Shown: positions 34,278-38,369 of the stretch, one piece after another
Layout: the number at the start of each line of letters is the position of its first letter
Numbering within the stretch: the first letter of the stretch is position 1
DNA from: Cyanobacteria bacterium auto_48_18
GTDB lineage: Bacteria > Cyanobacteriota > Vampirovibrionia > Obscuribacterales > Obscuribacteraceae
DNA length: 64,000 nt
Reading direction: 5' to 3'
Assembly: GCA_036170915.1 (NCBI GenBank)
Contig: JAVHQC010000033.1
Coordinates: 128,001-192,000, forward strand
Notes under the pieces: model-generated
What the model was told of the DNA's origin: nothing
Seen by the model: only the letters and a program-made list of their open reading frames with translations
The model's database searches: none
Program-made: the position numbers and the translations under genes

Positions 34278-35012
34278 ATGCTCGACAATCATTACGCCAA
34301 TTCTAAGCTCGCTGAACTTTATGATTTTGATAGCGGATGGTCTAGCGATAGAGATTTCTATTTATCGCTCGCCGAATCTCAGCCTCAAATGATTTTAGAT
34401 CTCGGCTGTGGAACGGGCCTTCTTTGTAGTGCCTATGCGGGTAACGGTCATCAAGTTACTGGCGTTGATCCGTCGTCTGCCATGCTTGAAATCGCACGCA
34501 GAAAACCACATGGAGACAAAATTGAGTGGGTACAGTCCACTGCCCAGAGTTATAGGTCTGGCAAACTTTTTGATCTAATAATTATGACCGGTCACGCCTT
34601 CCAGGTCTTATTGAAAGACGCTGATATTCTAGAAACTTTTTCGACAATGCAGAAGCACCTGAAGCCAGGTGGTACTGTAGTTTTCGAATCTCGTAACCCC
34701 TTAATTGATTGGCAGAATGAATGGGACTACGAGATGGTAATTGATTTGCCAAAAGGAAAGGTTACAGAGTCAAGGCGATTTCTCGCGATGAATAGCGATT
34801 TGATGAAATTCGAATTGCGATACCAGTTTTCTGATGAGACTTTGATTTCTAAAAGTGAGCTTCGATTTTTGTCACAAGACGAAATCAATAAGCGCTTAAG
34901 TGCATCAGGCCTGAGTTGCAACAAAGTGTTGGGCGGCTGGGATGGTCGTCACTTTGACGAATCTTGCCGAGAGATGATTTTCATTGTCCATACAAGAACT
35001 AATTTAATTTGA
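34278..35012 (+). CDS. Class I SAM-dependent methyltransferase
   Basis: ILDLGCGTG, GVDPSSAML, FDLIIMTGHAFQ, HLKPGG. Confidence 0.9.
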   Translation: MLDNHYANSKLAELYDFDSGWSSDRDFYLSLAESQPQMILDLGCGTGLLCSAYAGNGHQVTGVDPSSAMLEIARRKPHGDKIEWVQSTAQSYRSGKLFDLIIMTGHAFQVLLKDADILETFSTMQKHLKPGGTVVFESRNPLIDWQNEWDYEMVIDLPKGKVTESRRFLAMNSDLMKFELRYQFSDETLISKSELRFLSQDEINKRLSASGLSCNKVLGGWDGRHFDESCREMIFIVHTRTNLI

Positions 35013-35943
35013 GCTCCCAGTTTTGGCCGGTCAAATGATGCCCAAAGCTGTAATGCTGCTCTTCCAATACCAATTGAAAACCTGCTTGTTCGTAAATTCT
35101 ACGGGCGGAATGAAGAATATCGTTTGTCCATAAAGTCATTTTCTGGTAGCCACGTTGCCTGGCGAATTTTATGCATTCTTGCACCAGGCGGCGACCGATG
35201 CCCAAGCCGCGTGCATGAGGTTCAACGTACAGCAGCCGCAACTTAGCTACTTCGTCGCTCTCTTTAACTACAAAGACGGAGCCAACTATTGCGTCGTTTA
35301 CCTCGGCAATCCAACAGTGTTCTTTTTCTGCATCGAAGTTGAGGATAAATTTGGCCGCTATTTCTGCAATCAGAGCTTCGAATTTTTCATCCCAGTTATA
35401 TTCTTGATTGTAGAGAACGGCCTGACGGTGAATGATCCAACCCATGTCACCAGGTTGGTGTTCTCGCAAGACATAAGCGGCAGTGTTTTTTGTGCGAGAG
35501 CTATCCAAAAGCTGCTGCACCAAATTAATCGCCTGAATAAGTTTATTCTGCTCATCTAGTGAGAGTGGCTTCAACATCGCCGCCACTTCTTTCTCTGACC
35601 GTGCATTGAGAGGCTCAAAAGCTGCGCGGCCCTTGTCAGTGAGCGACAGAATGTGCTGCCGGGCATCTTGTGCCGATGGTGATTTGGCAATTAATTTTTG
35701 TTTTTGGAAAGCGCTTAGTATCCGACTTAAATAACCGGGATCAATAGAGAGGTCTCGACACAAATCGCTGGCAGTTAAATTTTGACCGTGATAAAGCTCG
35801 TACAAAATTCTTACTTCAGTTAATGAAAATTGACTTTCTAATAATCCTTCATGCAGCACACCAATTTTTTGTGTGTAAAAACGATTAAATTCTCTAACTG
35901 TGGCCACACGCTTGTGTAGATCACTCTTCTTCAGGCTGGGCAT
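34999..35943 (-). CDS. MarR-HTH plus GNAT acetyltransferase fusion
   Basis: VREFNRFYT, SLTEVRILYEL, PGDMGWI, AKLRLLYVEPHARGLGIG. Confidence 0.92.
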   Translation of the reverse strand: MPSLKKSDLHKRVATVREFNRFYTQKIGVLHEGLLESQFSLTEVRILYELYHGQNLTASDLCRDLSIDPGYLSRILSAFQKQKLIAKSPSAQDARQHILSLTDKGRAAFEPLNARSEKEVAAMLKPLSLDEQNKLIQAINLVQQLLDSSRTKNTAAYVLREHQPGDMGWIIHRQAVLYNQEYNWDEKFEALIAEIAAKFILNFDAEKEHCWIAEVNDAIVGSVFVVKESDEVAKLRLLYVEPHARGLGIGRRLVQECIKFARQRGYQKMTLWTNDILHSARRIYEQAGFQLVLEEQHYSFGHHLTGQNWELKLN

Positions 35944-36079
35944 GCCTTGAAACCTCAAACCGATAAGGTTGATATTGTCAACGAAATTAGTTGACTTTGT
36001 CAACTATCTCCCTAAATTCTCTACGCTGTTAGTTAGCAGCTATACATCTATTTCTCTATTTATGCGGTTTGAGTGCTAT

Positions 36080-36107
36080 TTGCACATTTGCAAACACGTG
36101 CTATATT
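36080..36107 (+). promoter_or_regulatory. Sigma70-like promoter, tRNA module 1
   Basis: TTGCAC-16 nt-TATATT with extended TG, 14 nt before tRNA-Gly. Confidence 0.55.
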
Positions 36108-36121
36108 GAAAAAACGTTGAT

Positions 36122-36195
36122 GCGGATTTGGCACATTGGTTGTGCACTAGTCTTCCAAACTAGCGAAAAGAGTTCGATTCTCTTATTCCGCTCCA
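36122..36195 (+). tRNA. tRNA-Gly(TCC)
   Basis: Cloverleaf: GCGGATT/ATTCCGC, CTAGT-CTTCCAA-ACTAG, TTCGATT loop, T73, CCA. Confidence 0.92.
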
Positions 36196-36201
36196 TTTTT
36201 A

Positions 36202-36305
36202 GGTGAATGAAATGAGTTCAGTGATTCGGGTAATGAAACGTAATTATGGCAGACCTTATATGTCTGCTGATCGTTTTGTCACACCCGTTTTGGATTCTAA
36301 TCACC
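36202..36305 (+). ncRNA. Putative structured leader RNA, copy 1
   Basis: Nested pairings GGTGA/TCACC, GAGTTC/GGATTC, CGGGT/ACCCG, GAAACG/CGTTTT, GGCAGAC/GTCTGCT; ATG follows at 36306. Confidence 0.55.
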
Positions 36306-36390
36306 ATGTTTCAACAAGTACAACCATTCCGAAGACCACGTCTACCAGAGCTTAAAGCTTGGTGCTCTGGTTCGTTCGGAGAAAAAACAC

Positions 36391-36466
36391 GCCCATGTAG
36401 CTCAAAAGCAGAGCATTCGCCTTGTAAGCGAGAGGTAGCGGGAGCATTACCACGCCTTGGGCTCCA
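36391..36466 (+). tRNA. tRNA-Thr(TGT), atypical T-arm
   Basis: GCCCATG/CTTGGGC, TTCGC-CTTGTAA-GCGAG, T-loop AGCATTA, CCA. Confidence 0.8.
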
Positions 36467-36488
36467 TTTTTCTCCAATTCAAAAATTT

Positions 36489-36560
36489 GCGCACGTGGTC
36501 TACTGGATGGGCACCGTTCTTCTAAAGCGGCTTAAGCAAGTTCGATTCTTGCCGTGCGTG
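36489..36560 (+). tRNA. tRNA-Arg(TCT)
   Basis: GCGCACG/CGTGCGT, CCGTT-CTTCTAA-AGCGG, GCAAG-TTCGATT-CTTGC; no encoded CCA. Confidence 0.88.
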
Positions 36561-36584
36561 AGTTTTGTACAAGGAGATTTTTTT

Positions 36585-36657
36585 AGATCGCTAGTTCAAT
36601 TGGTTAGAATCCTGACTCTTAATCAGCGAGATCCAAGTTCGATCCTTGGGCGGTCTA
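36585..36657 (+). tRNA. tRNA-Lys(CTT)
   Basis: AGATCGC/GCGGTCT, CTGA-CTCTTAA-TCAG, CCAAG-TTCGATC-CTTGG. Confidence 0.87.
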
Positions 36658-36668
36658 TTGTTGTTTTG

Positions 36669-36740
36669 CCTCTGATAGCACAATGGCGGTGCAGCTCTTT
36701 TACACAGAGATGGTTCTACGTTCAAGTCGTAGTCAGAGGA
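36669..36740 (+). tRNA. tRNA-Val(TAC)
   Basis: CCTCTGA/TCAGAGG, CTCT-TTTACAC-AGAG, CTACG-TTCAAGT-CGTAG. Confidence 0.87.
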
Positions 36741-36744
36741 CTAA

Positions 36745-36819
36745 TGCGTTATAGCTCAGTGGTAGAGCGGTCGCCTGTTAAGCGAATGATCCCTGGTTCG
36801 ATCCCAGGTAACGCAGCCA
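36745..36819 (+). tRNA. tRNA-Asn(GTT)
   Basis: TGCGTTA/TAACGCA, TCGC-CTGTTAA-GCGA, canonical D and T arms, G73, CCA. Confidence 0.93.
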
Positions 36820-36822
36820 TTT

Positions 36823-36894
36823 TCCACTGTCGTCTAATAGCAAGACTTCCAGCTCATAACTGGAATAATGTTGGTGCAAATCCAGCTAGTGGAA
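36823..36894 (+). tRNA. tRNA with CAT anticodon (Met or Ile2), atypical T-loop
   Basis: TCCACTG/TAGTGGA, TCCAG-CTCATAA-CTGGA, T-loop TGCAAAT. Confidence 0.82.
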
Positions 36895-36912
36895 TATTCC
36901 AAAAAAAAGTTA

Positions 36913-36942
36913 TTGCGCAGTTTCGCTGCCCTGTGATATGTT
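36913..36942 (+). promoter_or_regulatory. Sigma70-like internal promoter, tRNA module 2
   Basis: A-tract, TTGCGC-18 nt-TATGTT with extended TG, just upstream of hairpin 2. Confidence 0.5.
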
Positions 36943-36964
36943 GAGCAAAGTTGAAGTCAGGAAA

Positions 36965-37076
36965 GTTTCCAATGAAAGCCGTTCTCCAAAATTTGTATAG
37001 CATGAACGATAGACAGCCTCGGGGCTGCTTCTTATCGTTTGTCGTGCCTGTAAATTTCATTGGAGTATTTGGAAAT
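36965..37076 (+). ncRNA. Putative structured leader RNA, copy 2
   Basis: TTTCCAA/TTGGAAA, CTCCAA/TTGGAG, AAATTTGTA/TGTAAATTT, GCATGA/TCGTGC, AACGATAG/TTATCGTT, CAGCC-TCGG-GGCTG; ATG at 37075. Confidence 0.6.
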
Positions 37077-37141
37077 GAGACCAACACAATTAGTTTGCGA
37101 ATTACACCGCCGTCTACCAGAGCATAATGCTGGGTTGATAT

Positions 37142-37216
37142 GGCCGTGTAGTTTAGTGGTAAAACGCGCTCCTGATGAGAGTGTTAGCGATTGTTCGATT
37201 CAATCCATGGCCTCCA
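37142..37216 (+). tRNA. tRNA-Ile(GAT), atypical (G37, T73)
   Basis: GGCCGTG/CATGGCC, CGCTC-CTGATGA-GAGTG, GATTG-TTCGATT-CAATC, TCCA. Confidence 0.85.
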
Positions 37217-37275
37217 TATTCTTTCACCGATGCCGGTGCGGCACCGCAGATGATACCGCATGCTCGCCGGCTTTT

Positions 37276-37347
37276 GCTCCAATAGCCCAATGCAGAGGCA
37301 GCAGATTTAAACCCTGCAAAGTGAGGACTCATGCCCCTCTTGGAGCA
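37276..37347 (+). tRNA. tRNA-Leu(TAA), short variable arm, degenerate T-arm (possibly pseudo-tRNA)
   Basis: GCTCCAA/TTGGAGC, GCAG-ATTTAAACC-CTGC, T-loop CTCATGC. Confidence 0.68.
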
Positions 37348-37350
37348 CTC

Positions 37351-37422
37351 GCCCTATTACCCCAATGTAGAGGGAATAGTTTCAAAAACTATAAAGTCTC
37401 AGTTCGCGCCTGAGATAGGGCA
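37351..37422 (+). tRNA. tRNA-Leu(CAA), short variable arm
   Basis: GCCCTAT/ATAGGGC, ATAGT-TTCAAAA-ACTAT, CTCAG-TTCGCGC-CTGAG. Confidence 0.8.
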
Positions 37423-37425
37423 TTT

Positions 37426-37502
37426 GGTTCTGAAGATAAACCAGCAGAGTCGCCTCGTTGTCAGCGAGGAAATAGCGGGGGCAGCACCCGTCAGAACCGC
37501 CA
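37426..37502 (+). tRNA. tRNA-Asp(GTC), atypical D and T loops
   Basis: GGTTCTG/CAGAACC, CCTCG-TTGTCAG-CGAGG, T-loop GGCAGCA, G73, CCA. Confidence 0.8.
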
Positions 37503-37517
37503 TTTTTTTTGATATAT

Positions 37518-37603
37518 CGGCATGTGGGTGAGTGGTCGAAACCAGGACTCTGTAAAAGTTCTCCCTAAAAAGCACATTCGTTCGAATCGAATCATGCCGA
37601 CCA
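37518..37603 (+). tRNA. tRNA-Tyr(GTA) with C1-G72 pair
   Basis: CGGCATG/CATGCCG, A73, CCA; GGACT-CTGTAAA-AGTTC; long variable region; ATTCG-TTCGAAT-CGAAT. Confidence 0.87.
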
Positions 37604-37676: not shown

Positions 37677-38369
37677 ATGCTCAGAATAAAGCAAAGCATC
37701 TGCGTCCTTCTCGTCCTGGCTCTTGCCGGCCCTTCTTCCATGCAGGTAGTTTTGGCAGATGACATCAACGATGAGAAACTTTCCAGAGCTGAGGCCTTGA
37801 CCGAATTAGGCCACATGAGAACTGATCGATTCCGATTTGCTGAAGCAGCTCAACTTTATAGCGACGCGATTAAGTTAAACCCTGAACTTACTCTTGCTTA
37901 CGCTTGCCGCGCAGATGCTCGCGTAAAGTTGCACGACGACGTTGGTGCCTTGACAGACTACGACATGGCCTTAAAACTTTCACCTGATGACGCATTTGTC
38001 TATGGATGTCGCGGGGAGCTTAAGCTTCTAACAGGAGAGATCAAGGGTGCACTTCGTGATTTAGATATGGCAGATGCATTAGGGCTAGATTTCTTCTTTA
38101 TTTATTGGCGACGTGCAGAAGCAGAACTTATAGCTCGTGACTACGAGGGAGTTATCAAAGACTGCAATCGAGCGTTCCAATACGATTGCTTAACCGATTC
38201 TCGCCTCTATTTTCTCCGTGCTCAAGCAGAGTTTCACACGTTTAATTACATCGCTTCAGTTATTGATTTTTCTTTGGCCAACTATATTGAGTGTGCTGCG
38301 ACTTTGAGAAGGGTTTTGCTTCAATCAATAACTAACGTGAACGGCGCACATAAACGTGCCACAAACTAG
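37677..38369 (+). CDS. Secreted TPR-repeat protein
   Basis: Signal peptide; AYACRA, DYDMALKLSP, VYGCRG TPR motifs. Confidence 0.8.
   Translation: MLRIKQSICVLLVLALAGPSSMQVVLADDINDEKLSRAEALTELGHMRTDRFRFAEAAQLYSDAIKLNPELTLAYACRADARVKLHDDVGALTDYDMALKLSPDDAFVYGCRGELKLLTGEIKGALRDLDMADALGLDFFFIYWRRAEAELIARDYEGVIKDCNRAFQYDCLTDSRLYFLRAQAEFHTFNYIASVIDFSLANYIECAATLRRVLLQSITNVNGAHKRATN

What the first reader, a model, noticed from the sequence alone, without database searches (positions are those of the whole stretch)
36202..37076. Two homologous long hairpin RNAs with shared motifs and a sequestered ribosome-binding site
Seen: both hairpins carry AATGAAA at the end of the 5' closing strand, ATGAA(A)CG on the 5' arm and TCGTTT(T)GTC on the 3' arm, while the stem sequences differ yet still pair. 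In copy 2 the SD-like GGAG (37062-37065) pairs with CTCC. A second perfect register, TCCAATGAAA (36968-36977) with TTTCATTGGA (37055-37064), competes with it. Copy 1 has TTGGA at the equivalent position. Inference: an unannotated cis-regulatory RNA (switch or protein-binding leader), or a small RNA released by tRNA processing.
Basis: partly seen in the sequence, partly recalled or inferred. Interest (0 to 1): 0.75.

Follow-up and report, generated by a model that had tools for sequence, protein, structure and literature searches.

The report
Codon-sensing leaders gate translated tRNA arrays
The two hairpins are folded "test" reading frames that hide the start of a second, protein-less frame running straight through a row of tRNA genes, which looks like a switch that lets ribosomes themselves decide how many spare tRNAs the bacterium makes.

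Summary
The hairpins are real (z about -3.5, covariation, no Rfam match), but they are probably not small RNAs. Each is the folded mRNA of a ~50-codon leader (ORF-A). Its stem hides the start of a second frame (ORF-B, +1, overlapping A by ~50 nt) that reads through the downstream tRNA genes: 212 codons across six tRNAs here, and 137-259 codons in 14 of 14 congeneric loci. The module recurs, with diverged sequence, in several Obscuribacterales genera and at this genome's second tRNA array. ORF-A codons mirror the tRNAs downstream (344/763 vs 247 expected; two held-out modules agree), although the mirroring is weak in this window's own copies. Terminators are absent in 14 of 16 modules, and Rho was found in 0 of 61 genomes. 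Best model: completing A switches on B (MS2-lysis geometry), and B ribosomes suppress tRNA excision; tRNA shortage stalls A, closes B and releases tRNAs. The direction is inferred, my simulation was ambiguous, and B stops short of the tRNAs in two modules. The scan has noted terminator-type leader attenuators at tRNA arrays on other DNA, but not this read-through output.

The parts
36079..36107 (+). Promoter 1 (sigma70-like, extended -10); a near-identical copy heads the genome's second tRNA array
   Evidence: consensus match only
36122..36195 (+). tRNA-Gly(UCC), upstream of the gate
36201..36206 (+). SD of ORF-A1 (AGGTGA); also the 5' closing strand of hairpin 1
   Evidence: -8.3 kcal/mol with a generic anti-SD
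36202..36305 (+). Hairpin 1: folded ORF-A1 mRNA that hides the weak SD (GGA, 36292-36294) and the bases just before the ORF-B1 start
36212..36355 (+). ORF-A1, 47-codon leader; overlaps the B1 start by 50 nt
   Evidence: open, 46-47 codons, ATG/GTG start and TAA stop in 14 of 14 congeneric loci
36306..36944 (+). ORF-B1, 212 codons, +1 frame to A1, reading through six tRNA genes
   Evidence: no Pfam match
36391..36895 (+). tRNA block inside ORF-B1: Thr(UGU) 36391-36463, Arg(UCU) 36488-36561, Lys(CUU) 36584-36658, Val(UAC) 36669-36741, Asn(GUU) 36745-36819, Met(CAU) 36822-36895
   Evidence: the Thr gene from Rfam; anticodon read and ARAGORN calls in relatives
36913..36942 (+). Promoter 2 (TTGCGC-18-TATGTT with TG), heading module 2
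   Evidence: pattern; similar hexamers at this position in relatives; consensus match only
36959..36962 (+). SD of ORF-A2 (AGGA), outside the stem
36965..37076 (+). Hairpin 2: folded ORF-A2 mRNA; CTCC 36984-36987 pairs with the SD of B2 (GGAG 37062-37065)
36972..37127 (+). ORF-A2, 51-codon leader; overlaps the B2 start by 53 nt
   Evidence: open, 46-54 codons, in 8 of 8 loci that keep it
37075..37413 (+). ORF-B2, 112 codons, reading through tRNA-Ile and tRNA-Leu(UAA) and ending in tRNA-Leu(CAA)
   Evidence: phase to tRNA-Ile kept in 10 of 10 loci, including two that deleted the hairpin
37142..37603 (+). Second tRNA block: Ile(GAU) 37142-37216, Leu(UAA) 37276-37347, Leu(CAA) 37351-37422, Asp(GUC) about 37426-37502, Tyr(GUA) 37518-37603
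   Evidence: Asp gene read by eye
37331..37531 (+). Possible relay frame C (66 codons, strong SD inside the T-arm of tRNA-Leu(UAA)) covering Leu(CAA) and Asp; conservation not testable
   Evidence: (SD -7.1)

Best explanation
Each hairpin is the gate of a two-frame translational switch at the head of a block of spare (L-array-type) tRNA genes in an Obscuribacterales bacterium. SHOWN by sequence comparison: (1) a ~50-codon leader ORF-A with an SD, whose peptide is not conserved but whose frame is; (2) its mRNA folds so that A's start region pairs with the SD/start of ORF-B; (3) ORF-B is usually in the +1 frame, starts ~50 nt before A's stop and usually stays open through several tRNA genes, with no recognisable protein; (4) A's codons are enriched for those read by the tRNAs downstream. 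INFERRED: with ample tRNA, ribosomes run through A and terminate, which opens the stem and starts B (MS2 coat-lysis geometry). When those tRNAs run short or ribosomes are poisoned, ribosomes stall in A, leave the stem shut or sit on B's start, B goes off, and the tRNAs fold and are released. This would be a negative feedback loop acting at tRNA maturation. My odds: architecture about 0.9, codon-sensing role about 0.8, this direction and output about 0.5.
For: A open in 14/14 congeneric loci with the other frames closed in 14/14, and 15/16 modules vs 3/16 and 1/16 for the other frames. B1 137-259 codons in 14/14 vs 7-43 and 14-15 for the other frames. Window B1 uses the only open phase in five tRNAs and one of two in the sixth (about 0.003 by chance, my arithmetic). 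B-covered intervals keep their length class mod 3, while uncovered spacers spread over 2-3 classes. B frame median 140 open codons from the first tRNA vs 14.5 in module-less arrays and 37 for best-of-three frames; among null frames that pass one tRNA, 13/119 reach 90 codons vs 14/16 for B. Codon mirroring: 344/763 vs 247 expected; 8-module subset 149/368 vs 101, p 5e-5; B N-terminus and third-frame controls null. Held-out modules L098 (15/44 vs 7.2) and L103 (22/41 vs 13.3) agree. Mirroring also holds after the B start (46/90 vs 30), where a stalled ribosome covers B's start. Median overlap 50 nt matches MS2 -50 nt and fr -38 nt (PMC12548453). No terminator-like site between A start and B stop in 14/16; Rho over cut-off in 0/61 genomes. 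L-arrays are induced by impaired translation (PMC8421152). Translation and excision of a nested tRNA were proposed as alternatives for selB-selC (PMC8124441).
Against: There is no expression or ribosome data. Mirroring is weak in the window's own copies (14/46 and 9/50; z 1.2 and 0.4) and negative in L081. B does not cross any tRNA in L098 (stops 8 nt into the first) or L103 (stops about 220 nt short); B is 41 codons in L106's first module; and B2 covers only tRNA-Ile in most relatives. tRNAs upstream of A and downstream of B's stop escape such control: 74/139 tRNAs in module arrays lie in SD-led frames. In L087 copy 1, A is only 14 codons and cannot cover B's start. Codons 2-8, where a ribosome opens B, are also mirrored (48/112 vs 34). 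A traffic simulation gave B availability down about 3-8-fold under 30-fold shortage at high loading in seven of nine modules, but up about 2-fold at low loading in most, and mixed for single tRNAs. Modules are related by descent, and I curated the tRNA sets after seeing the peptides.
Confidence: 0.5

Rival explanations
1. Same sensor, opposite output (ermC/cat-like). A ribosome stalled or queued on A's first codons uncovers B's start, B turns ON under tRNA shortage, and B ribosomes protect the precursor from decay (RNase J/E) or help RNA polymerase through the array, raising tRNA output.
For: A ribosome on A codons 1-7 (and 9-11 in copy 1, the conserved K/R-R-N codons) lowers the cost of opening B's start by about 2-11 kcal/mol. 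Codons 2-8 are mirrored. L087 copy 1 has a 14-codon A with K-R-N matching its Lys, Arg and Asn tRNAs and gains B access under shortage in simulation. At low loading B access rises in most modules. RNase J, E and III are present.
Against: A runs 13-89 nt past B's start in 15/16 modules, with mirrored codons there, which a stall-to-open design should avoid. There is no terminator for B to suppress in 14/16 modules and no Rho. A ribosome passing through a pre-tRNA must unfold it (established helicase property; inference).
Confidence: 0.27
2. The hairpin is a nuclease or pausing switch (for example an RNase III site) whose folding is set by ribosomes on A; ORF-B is secondary, a ribosome sink or relic kept open to avoid harmful stalls.
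For: Long irregular stems; RNase III present; B is short or stops before the tRNAs in L098, L103 and L106.
Against: It does not explain why the stem pairs specifically with B's SD/start in every module, why B's phase and SD survive deletion of the hairpin in two loci, or why B stays open over up to nine tRNAs.
Confidence: 0.1
3. One reading: a small structured RNA released by tRNA processing, or a protein-binding leader, with the reading frames incidental.
For: Stable covarying stems; flanking tRNA processing could free a leader fragment; the inner CGTTTTGT stem recurs in several genera.
Against: Frame conservation, mod-3 indels, codon mirroring in the A frame only, and the lack of family-wide sequence motifs.
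Confidence: 0.07
4. ORF-B (or A) encodes a functional protein or toxin, with A as a mok-like activator as in type I toxin-antitoxin loci.
For: The overlap of an upstream frame with a sequestered SD recalls hok/mok (recalled, not tested).
Against: No Pfam family for A1, B1 or A2 and one sub-threshold hit for B2; B N-termini differ between genera and lengths run from 41 to 284 codons; A1 changes are mostly non-synonymous; no antisense partner was looked for.
Confidence: 0.06

Closest known systems
MS2/fr coat-lysis translational coupling (PMC12548453, passages read)
   Same: Downstream start hidden in a hairpin inside the upstream frame and overlapping it by -50 nt (MS2) or -38 nt (fr); median overlap here is 50 nt.
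   Different: The upstream frame is a short codon-sampling leader rather than a structural gene, and the downstream frame makes no known protein but runs through tRNA genes.
Leader-peptide attenuators: trp/his/thr type (transcription) and ermC/cat type (translation) (recalled)
   Same: Short translated leader enriched in the sensed codons; ribosome position controls a hairpin; in the ermC/cat type the hairpin hides a downstream SD.
   Different: No terminator (14/16 modules); the leader overlaps the downstream start; the controlled product would be tRNA rather than an enzyme or resistance protein.
selB-selC nested tRNA-Sec in Alphaproteobacteria (PMC8124441, parts 1-2 of 3 read: all of the main text and part of the reference list)
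   Same: A whole tRNA inside a conserved reading frame; translation and tRNA excision proposed as alternatives.
   Different: One tRNA in the tail of a real protein gene, with no gate. Here up to nine tRNAs lie in a dedicated frame behind a codon-sensing gate. That paper calls itself the first report of a nested tRNA in a bacterial ORF.
L-array / trn operon of Anabaena PCC 7120 with the TrcR repressor (PMC8421152, PMC10272220, passages read)
   Same: Supernumerary divergent tRNA array; induced by translational stress in Anabaena.
   Different: Anabaena uses a DNA-binding repressor. Its array (L028) shows no A/B module, and its longest sense open stretch covers 3 of 24 tRNAs. No match to the TrcR 8-mer within two mismatches at promoter 1, and one two-mismatch match at promoter 2.
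Leader-ORF attenuators at tRNA arrays noted by this scan (e1-2978539, e1-5998120 and others; AI notes)
   Same: Leader codons mirror the downstream tRNA array.
   Different: Those notes describe terminator/antiterminator switches. This one has a sequestered start and a read-through frame instead.

Membership tests
Any Rfam 15 RNA family (6S, SRP, Y RNA, T-box, riboswitches, GOLLD etc.) | Covariance-model score at or above the gathering threshold | tested here: not met
   only tRNAs pass; the best hit on copy 1 is snoRNA ceN108 at 18.9 of 50 bits, E 0.8
Leader-peptide transcription attenuator (trp/his/thr type) | Short translated leader enriched in sensed codons | tested here: met
   at family level; weak in the window's two copies; translation itself not shown
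Leader-peptide transcription attenuator (trp/his/thr type) | Intrinsic terminator/antiterminator, or Rho site, downstream of the leader | tested here: not met
   No hairpin+U-tract between A start and B stop in 14 of 16 modules, including both window copies (one search's looser scan flags only the apical stems, with poor tails); Rho over cut-off in 0 of 61 genomes
Translational attenuator (ermC/cat type) | Downstream SD/start sequestered in a hairpin that a ribosome on the leader can open | tested here: met
   (computed folding only)
Translational attenuator (ermC/cat type) | Leader ends before the downstream start, so a stall exposes it | tested here: not met
   A overlaps B's start by 13-89 nt in 15 of 16 modules
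Translational attenuator (ermC/cat type) | Downstream frame encodes a functional protein | tested here: not met
   No Pfam match, N-termini not conserved, 41-284 codons through tRNA genes; no wider homolog search was run
Translational attenuator (ermC/cat type) | Stalling turns the downstream frame on | tested here: inconclusive
   Simulation depends on loading rate and on which tRNA is limiting
MS2-type overlap coupling | Hidden start about 38-50 nt upstream of the upstream stop | tested here: met
   Overlaps 50 and 53 nt here; median 50 over 16 modules; reference values
MS2-type overlap coupling | Downstream initiation needs upstream termination | not testable with these tools
   Needs reporter assays
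Nested tRNA in a reading frame (selB-selC type) | Entire tRNA inside a frame kept open across relatives | tested here: met
Nested tRNA in a reading frame (selB-selC type) | Host frame is a conserved protein gene | tested here: not met
L-array (long tRNA array) | Supernumerary tRNAs redundant with housekeeping ones, patchy in distribution | tested here: met
   separate housekeeping copies exist for most of these tRNAs; the array is in 13 of 14 congeners but not found in many family members searched; here it is split into arrays of 12 and 10 genes
L-array (long tRNA array) | Silent normally, induced by translational stress | not testable with these tools
   Needs expression data

The most novel reading that the evidence does not exclude
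Obscuribacterales regulate tRNA supply by translating their own tRNA precursors. A codon-sampling leader gates a protein-less frame, and ribosomes on that frame stop up to nine pre-tRNAs from folding and being excised. tRNA genes thus behave as mRNA in plenty and as tRNA in scarcity, a feedback on tRNA maturation with no repressor, terminator or Rho.
Probability: 0.45. Interest if true: 0.93.

Novelty: new variant of a known kind. Interest (0 to 1): 0.82.

Why it matters
tRNA genes are assumed to be untranslated, and how stress-induced tRNA arrays are switched is known mainly from one repressor in Anabaena. Here a bacterial family keeps 100-280-codon frames open through whole tRNA blocks, under a leader that samples the same tRNAs. 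If the model holds, it is a new layer of control: ribosome traffic deciding whether an RNA becomes tRNA or decays as mRNA. It would also make the untested 'translation versus excision' idea for nested tRNAs testable with simple reporters, and warn annotators that long 'spurious' ORFs over tRNA arrays can be under selection. Whichever direction proves right, the gated read-through frame is not described in the papers I could search.

Tried and rejected
Rfam: no family for either hairpin. Recalled look-alikes (6S, SRP, Y RNA, T-box, HDV/theta ribozyme, GOLLD, 5S loop E) were dropped because their core motifs are not in the sequence and Rfam gave no support. Exact tail pattern: 0 hits in genome contigs. 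The inner-motif pattern found Obscuribacterales arrays; the other hits I opened (L054, L056, L058, L063, L074, L077-L079) were chance or CRISPR repeats; L053 and L055-L068 other than those were not opened. Plasmids: only tRNA-level hits. The two-register switch is not conserved. Rho antitermination: rejected. A leaderless frame through tRNA-Gly ending in A1's SD (36120-36206) was seen only in the window and perhaps one relative, so it is not counted. A genome-wide scan for the same module before protein genes tested 23 candidates and returned the two window modules and one GC-rich doubtful hit; its filters missed the second-array module. No module was found in L023, L024, L046, L047, L050, L052 or Anabaena L028. 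The SD-B motif scan of 301 genomes gave 18 sites; of 13 loci opened, 5 were chance hits without tRNAs. Expression: no RNA holder listed. The traffic simulation did not settle the direction. Literature searches found no description of this arrangement; the library lacks most subscription papers, and supplements were not read. Scan look-ups by place, sequence and read-through wording were blank.

Full report
Context. The hairpins lie inside a 12-gene tRNA array (36122-37603): nine genes by ARAGORN, two more by Rfam, and Asp by eye. Record titles of close relatives name Ca. Obscuribacterales. The genome has separate housekeeping copies of most of these tRNAs and a second array of ten genes with a near-identical promoter. 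This fits the L-arrays of PMC8421152 (passages), which in Anabaena are silent until translation is impaired.

Observation. Copy 1 covaries (5 of 29 pairs) and so does copy 2 (10 of 41 pairs in 3 sequences). Only tRNAs pass Rfam. But AATGAAA is kept in 1 of 14 copy-1 loci, the inner copy-2 motifs in 1 of 8, and the second register in 1 of 8 with probability 0.03, whereas CTCC:GGAG is kept in 8 of 8 with probability 0.97.

What it is. Each hairpin is the mRNA of a leader frame. A1 (36212-36355) is open with SD, start and TAA in 14 of 14 congeneric loci, and the other two frames are closed in 14 of 14. A2 (36972-37127) is open in 8 of 8 loci that keep it. The peptide drifts freely, so the frame, not the product, is kept. 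Right after each stem an ATG begins ORF-B in the +1 frame. B1 (36306-36944) runs 212 codons through six tRNAs; in relatives it runs 137-259 codons, against 7-43 and 14-15 for the other frames, and in 6 of 14 it continues into A2. Five of the six tRNAs have a single stop-free phase and B1 uses it. Relative to B1's start, Thr keeps its phase in 12 of 12 loci, Met in 13 of 13, Arg in 13 of 14 and Asn in 12 of 14. B2-to-Ile has four lengths, all in one class mod 3, while four uncovered spacers spread over two or three classes. Two loci that lost hairpin 2 keep B2's SD, start and phase.

Generality. A script looked for SD-led start pairs whose stem hides the second SD. It required B to cross at least one tRNA but did not require A to be open or in any frame. 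In 22 arrays it found 17 clear modules in 14 arrays from at least five genera, including the second array of this genome (B 174 codons over five tRNAs) and L080 (284 codons over nine). For statistics I used 16: I dropped L089 as a near-duplicate of L088, and two weak candidates (L001 A at 2711, L081 A at 2618). L022, whose module the script missed, was also left out. A is open to B's start in 15 of 16, B is in +1 in 14 of 16, and the median overlap is 50 nt. From the first tRNA, B stays open a median 140 codons, against 14.5 for 288 null frames and 37 for best-of-three; of 119 null frames that pass one tRNA, 13 reach 90 codons, against 14 of 16 for B. Seven arrays, including Anabaena's, have no module.

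What A senses. Scan notes on phage and other arrays prompted a test of codon mirroring. A's codons are read by its own downstream tRNAs more often than by those of other modules: 344 of 763 vs 247 expected; in eight less-related modules 149 of 368 vs 101, p 5e-5; B's first codons and the third frame show nothing (amino-acid version, where L080's start was set one codon too early). The signal holds in codons 2-8, in the stem, and after B's start. Two modules found later from the SD-B motif alone agree (15 of 44 vs 7.2; 22 of 41 vs 13.3). Against: the window's own copies are weak (14 of 46, 9 of 50), perhaps because this array has lost tRNA-Ala and been rearranged relative to its congeners (inference); L081 is negative; the modules share ancestry; and I curated the tRNA sets after seeing the peptides.

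How it may work. There is no terminator-like site between A's start and B's stop in 14 of 16 modules, and Rho passes its cut-off in 0 of 61 related genomes, so the output is unlikely to be termination. In computed folds B's initiation region costs 6-16 kcal/mol to open. A ribosome on A's first codons lowers this, one in mid-stem leaves it shut, and one around codons 23-45 covers it. The overlap equals that of the MS2 coat-lysis pair, where a terminating ribosome activates the hidden start (PMC12548453, passages). I therefore favour: completing A turns B on; B ribosomes unfold the pre-tRNAs and compete with excision, as proposed for selB-selC (PMC8124441, main text read); shortage stalls A, shuts B and frees the tRNAs. 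These steps are inferred. A traffic simulation with assumed rates showed flux through A falling steadily with shortage, but de novo access to B falling at high loading and rising at low loading, so the ermC-like opposite sign stays open. B fails to cross a tRNA in L098 and L103 and is short in L106's first module. Only 74 of 139 tRNAs in module arrays lie in SD-led frames, against 13 of 99 in module-less arrays. RNase III, J and E are present.

Known or new. It works like a leader-peptide attenuator joined to MS2-type coupling, but it fails membership of both attenuator classes (no terminator; leader overlaps the target; target encodes no recognisable protein). Searches (listings only, apart from the four papers named) found no account of a gated frame through tRNA arrays; supplements were not read. 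The scan has noted terminator-based leaders at tRNA arrays on other DNA, but nothing with this output. The comparisons with ermC, cat, trp and hok/mok are recalled. TrcR details come from passages of PMC10272220.

Verdict. A real, conserved and unusual element. Interest 0.82; a new variant of leader attenuation whose output, if confirmed, would be categorically new.

Noticed in passing
G000:C33:16900-15000 (minus strand), outside the window: Second tRNA array (Pro, Asn, Ser, Gln, His, Cys, Leu, Trp, Ser, Phe) with the same promoter and its own A/B module; its leader shows among the clearest codon mirroring.
   Followed up: yes
window 36339-36363 and 37111-37135: The two copies share a 22/25-nt tail (both A frames end STRA*), but only 1 of 8 copy-2 loci has it, suggesting recent copying from module 1 into module 2 in this lineage.
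   Followed up: partly
window 36361-36390: Remnant of the 5' end of tRNA-Ala(UGC), which is intact at this place in most congeners; the deletion kept ORF-B1 in frame.
   Followed up: partly
window 37331-37531; L021:4492-4644; L081:2750: Further SD-led frames start where B stops and cover more tRNAs, suggesting a relay of read-through frames.
   Followed up: partly
window 36120-36206: Nearly leaderless 28-codon frame through tRNA-Gly in its only open phase, with its stop inside A1's SD; not evident in most relatives.
   Followed up: partly
window 37276-37347 and 37351-37422: tRNA-Leu(UAA) and tRNA-Leu(CAA) are only 72 nt, lacking the long variable arm usual for Leu tRNAs; several array tRNAs have atypical T-loops.
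   Followed up: no
window 37229-37276: GC-rich branched hairpin between tRNA-Ile and tRNA-Leu, inside ORF-B2; possibly a decayed tRNA.
   Followed up: no
L082, L083, L085 (genus g46 arrays): Two A/B modules in tandem, one before a divergent tRNA-Ala and one before the Thr-Lys-Arg-Arg-Val-Asn-Ser-Ile block.
   Followed up: partly
L088 and L089 after tRNA-Phe; L084:2497-2713: Tandem repeats (about 38-nt units in L088/L089, about 73-nt units in L084) at or inside the arrays.
   Followed up: no
window 34999-36003 (-) and 37677-38369 (+): The array sits between a divergent MarR-GNAT fusion gene and a TPR-protein gene.
   Followed up: no
leader codons 6-7 across genera: Codon 6 is mostly Gln or Arg and codon 7 often AAT, CAT or TAT; this may be a stem constraint or a sensed position.
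   Followed up: no
L053: A contig in an assembly titled Flavobacterium carries the Obscuribacterales-type motif; likely mis-binned.
   Followed up: no
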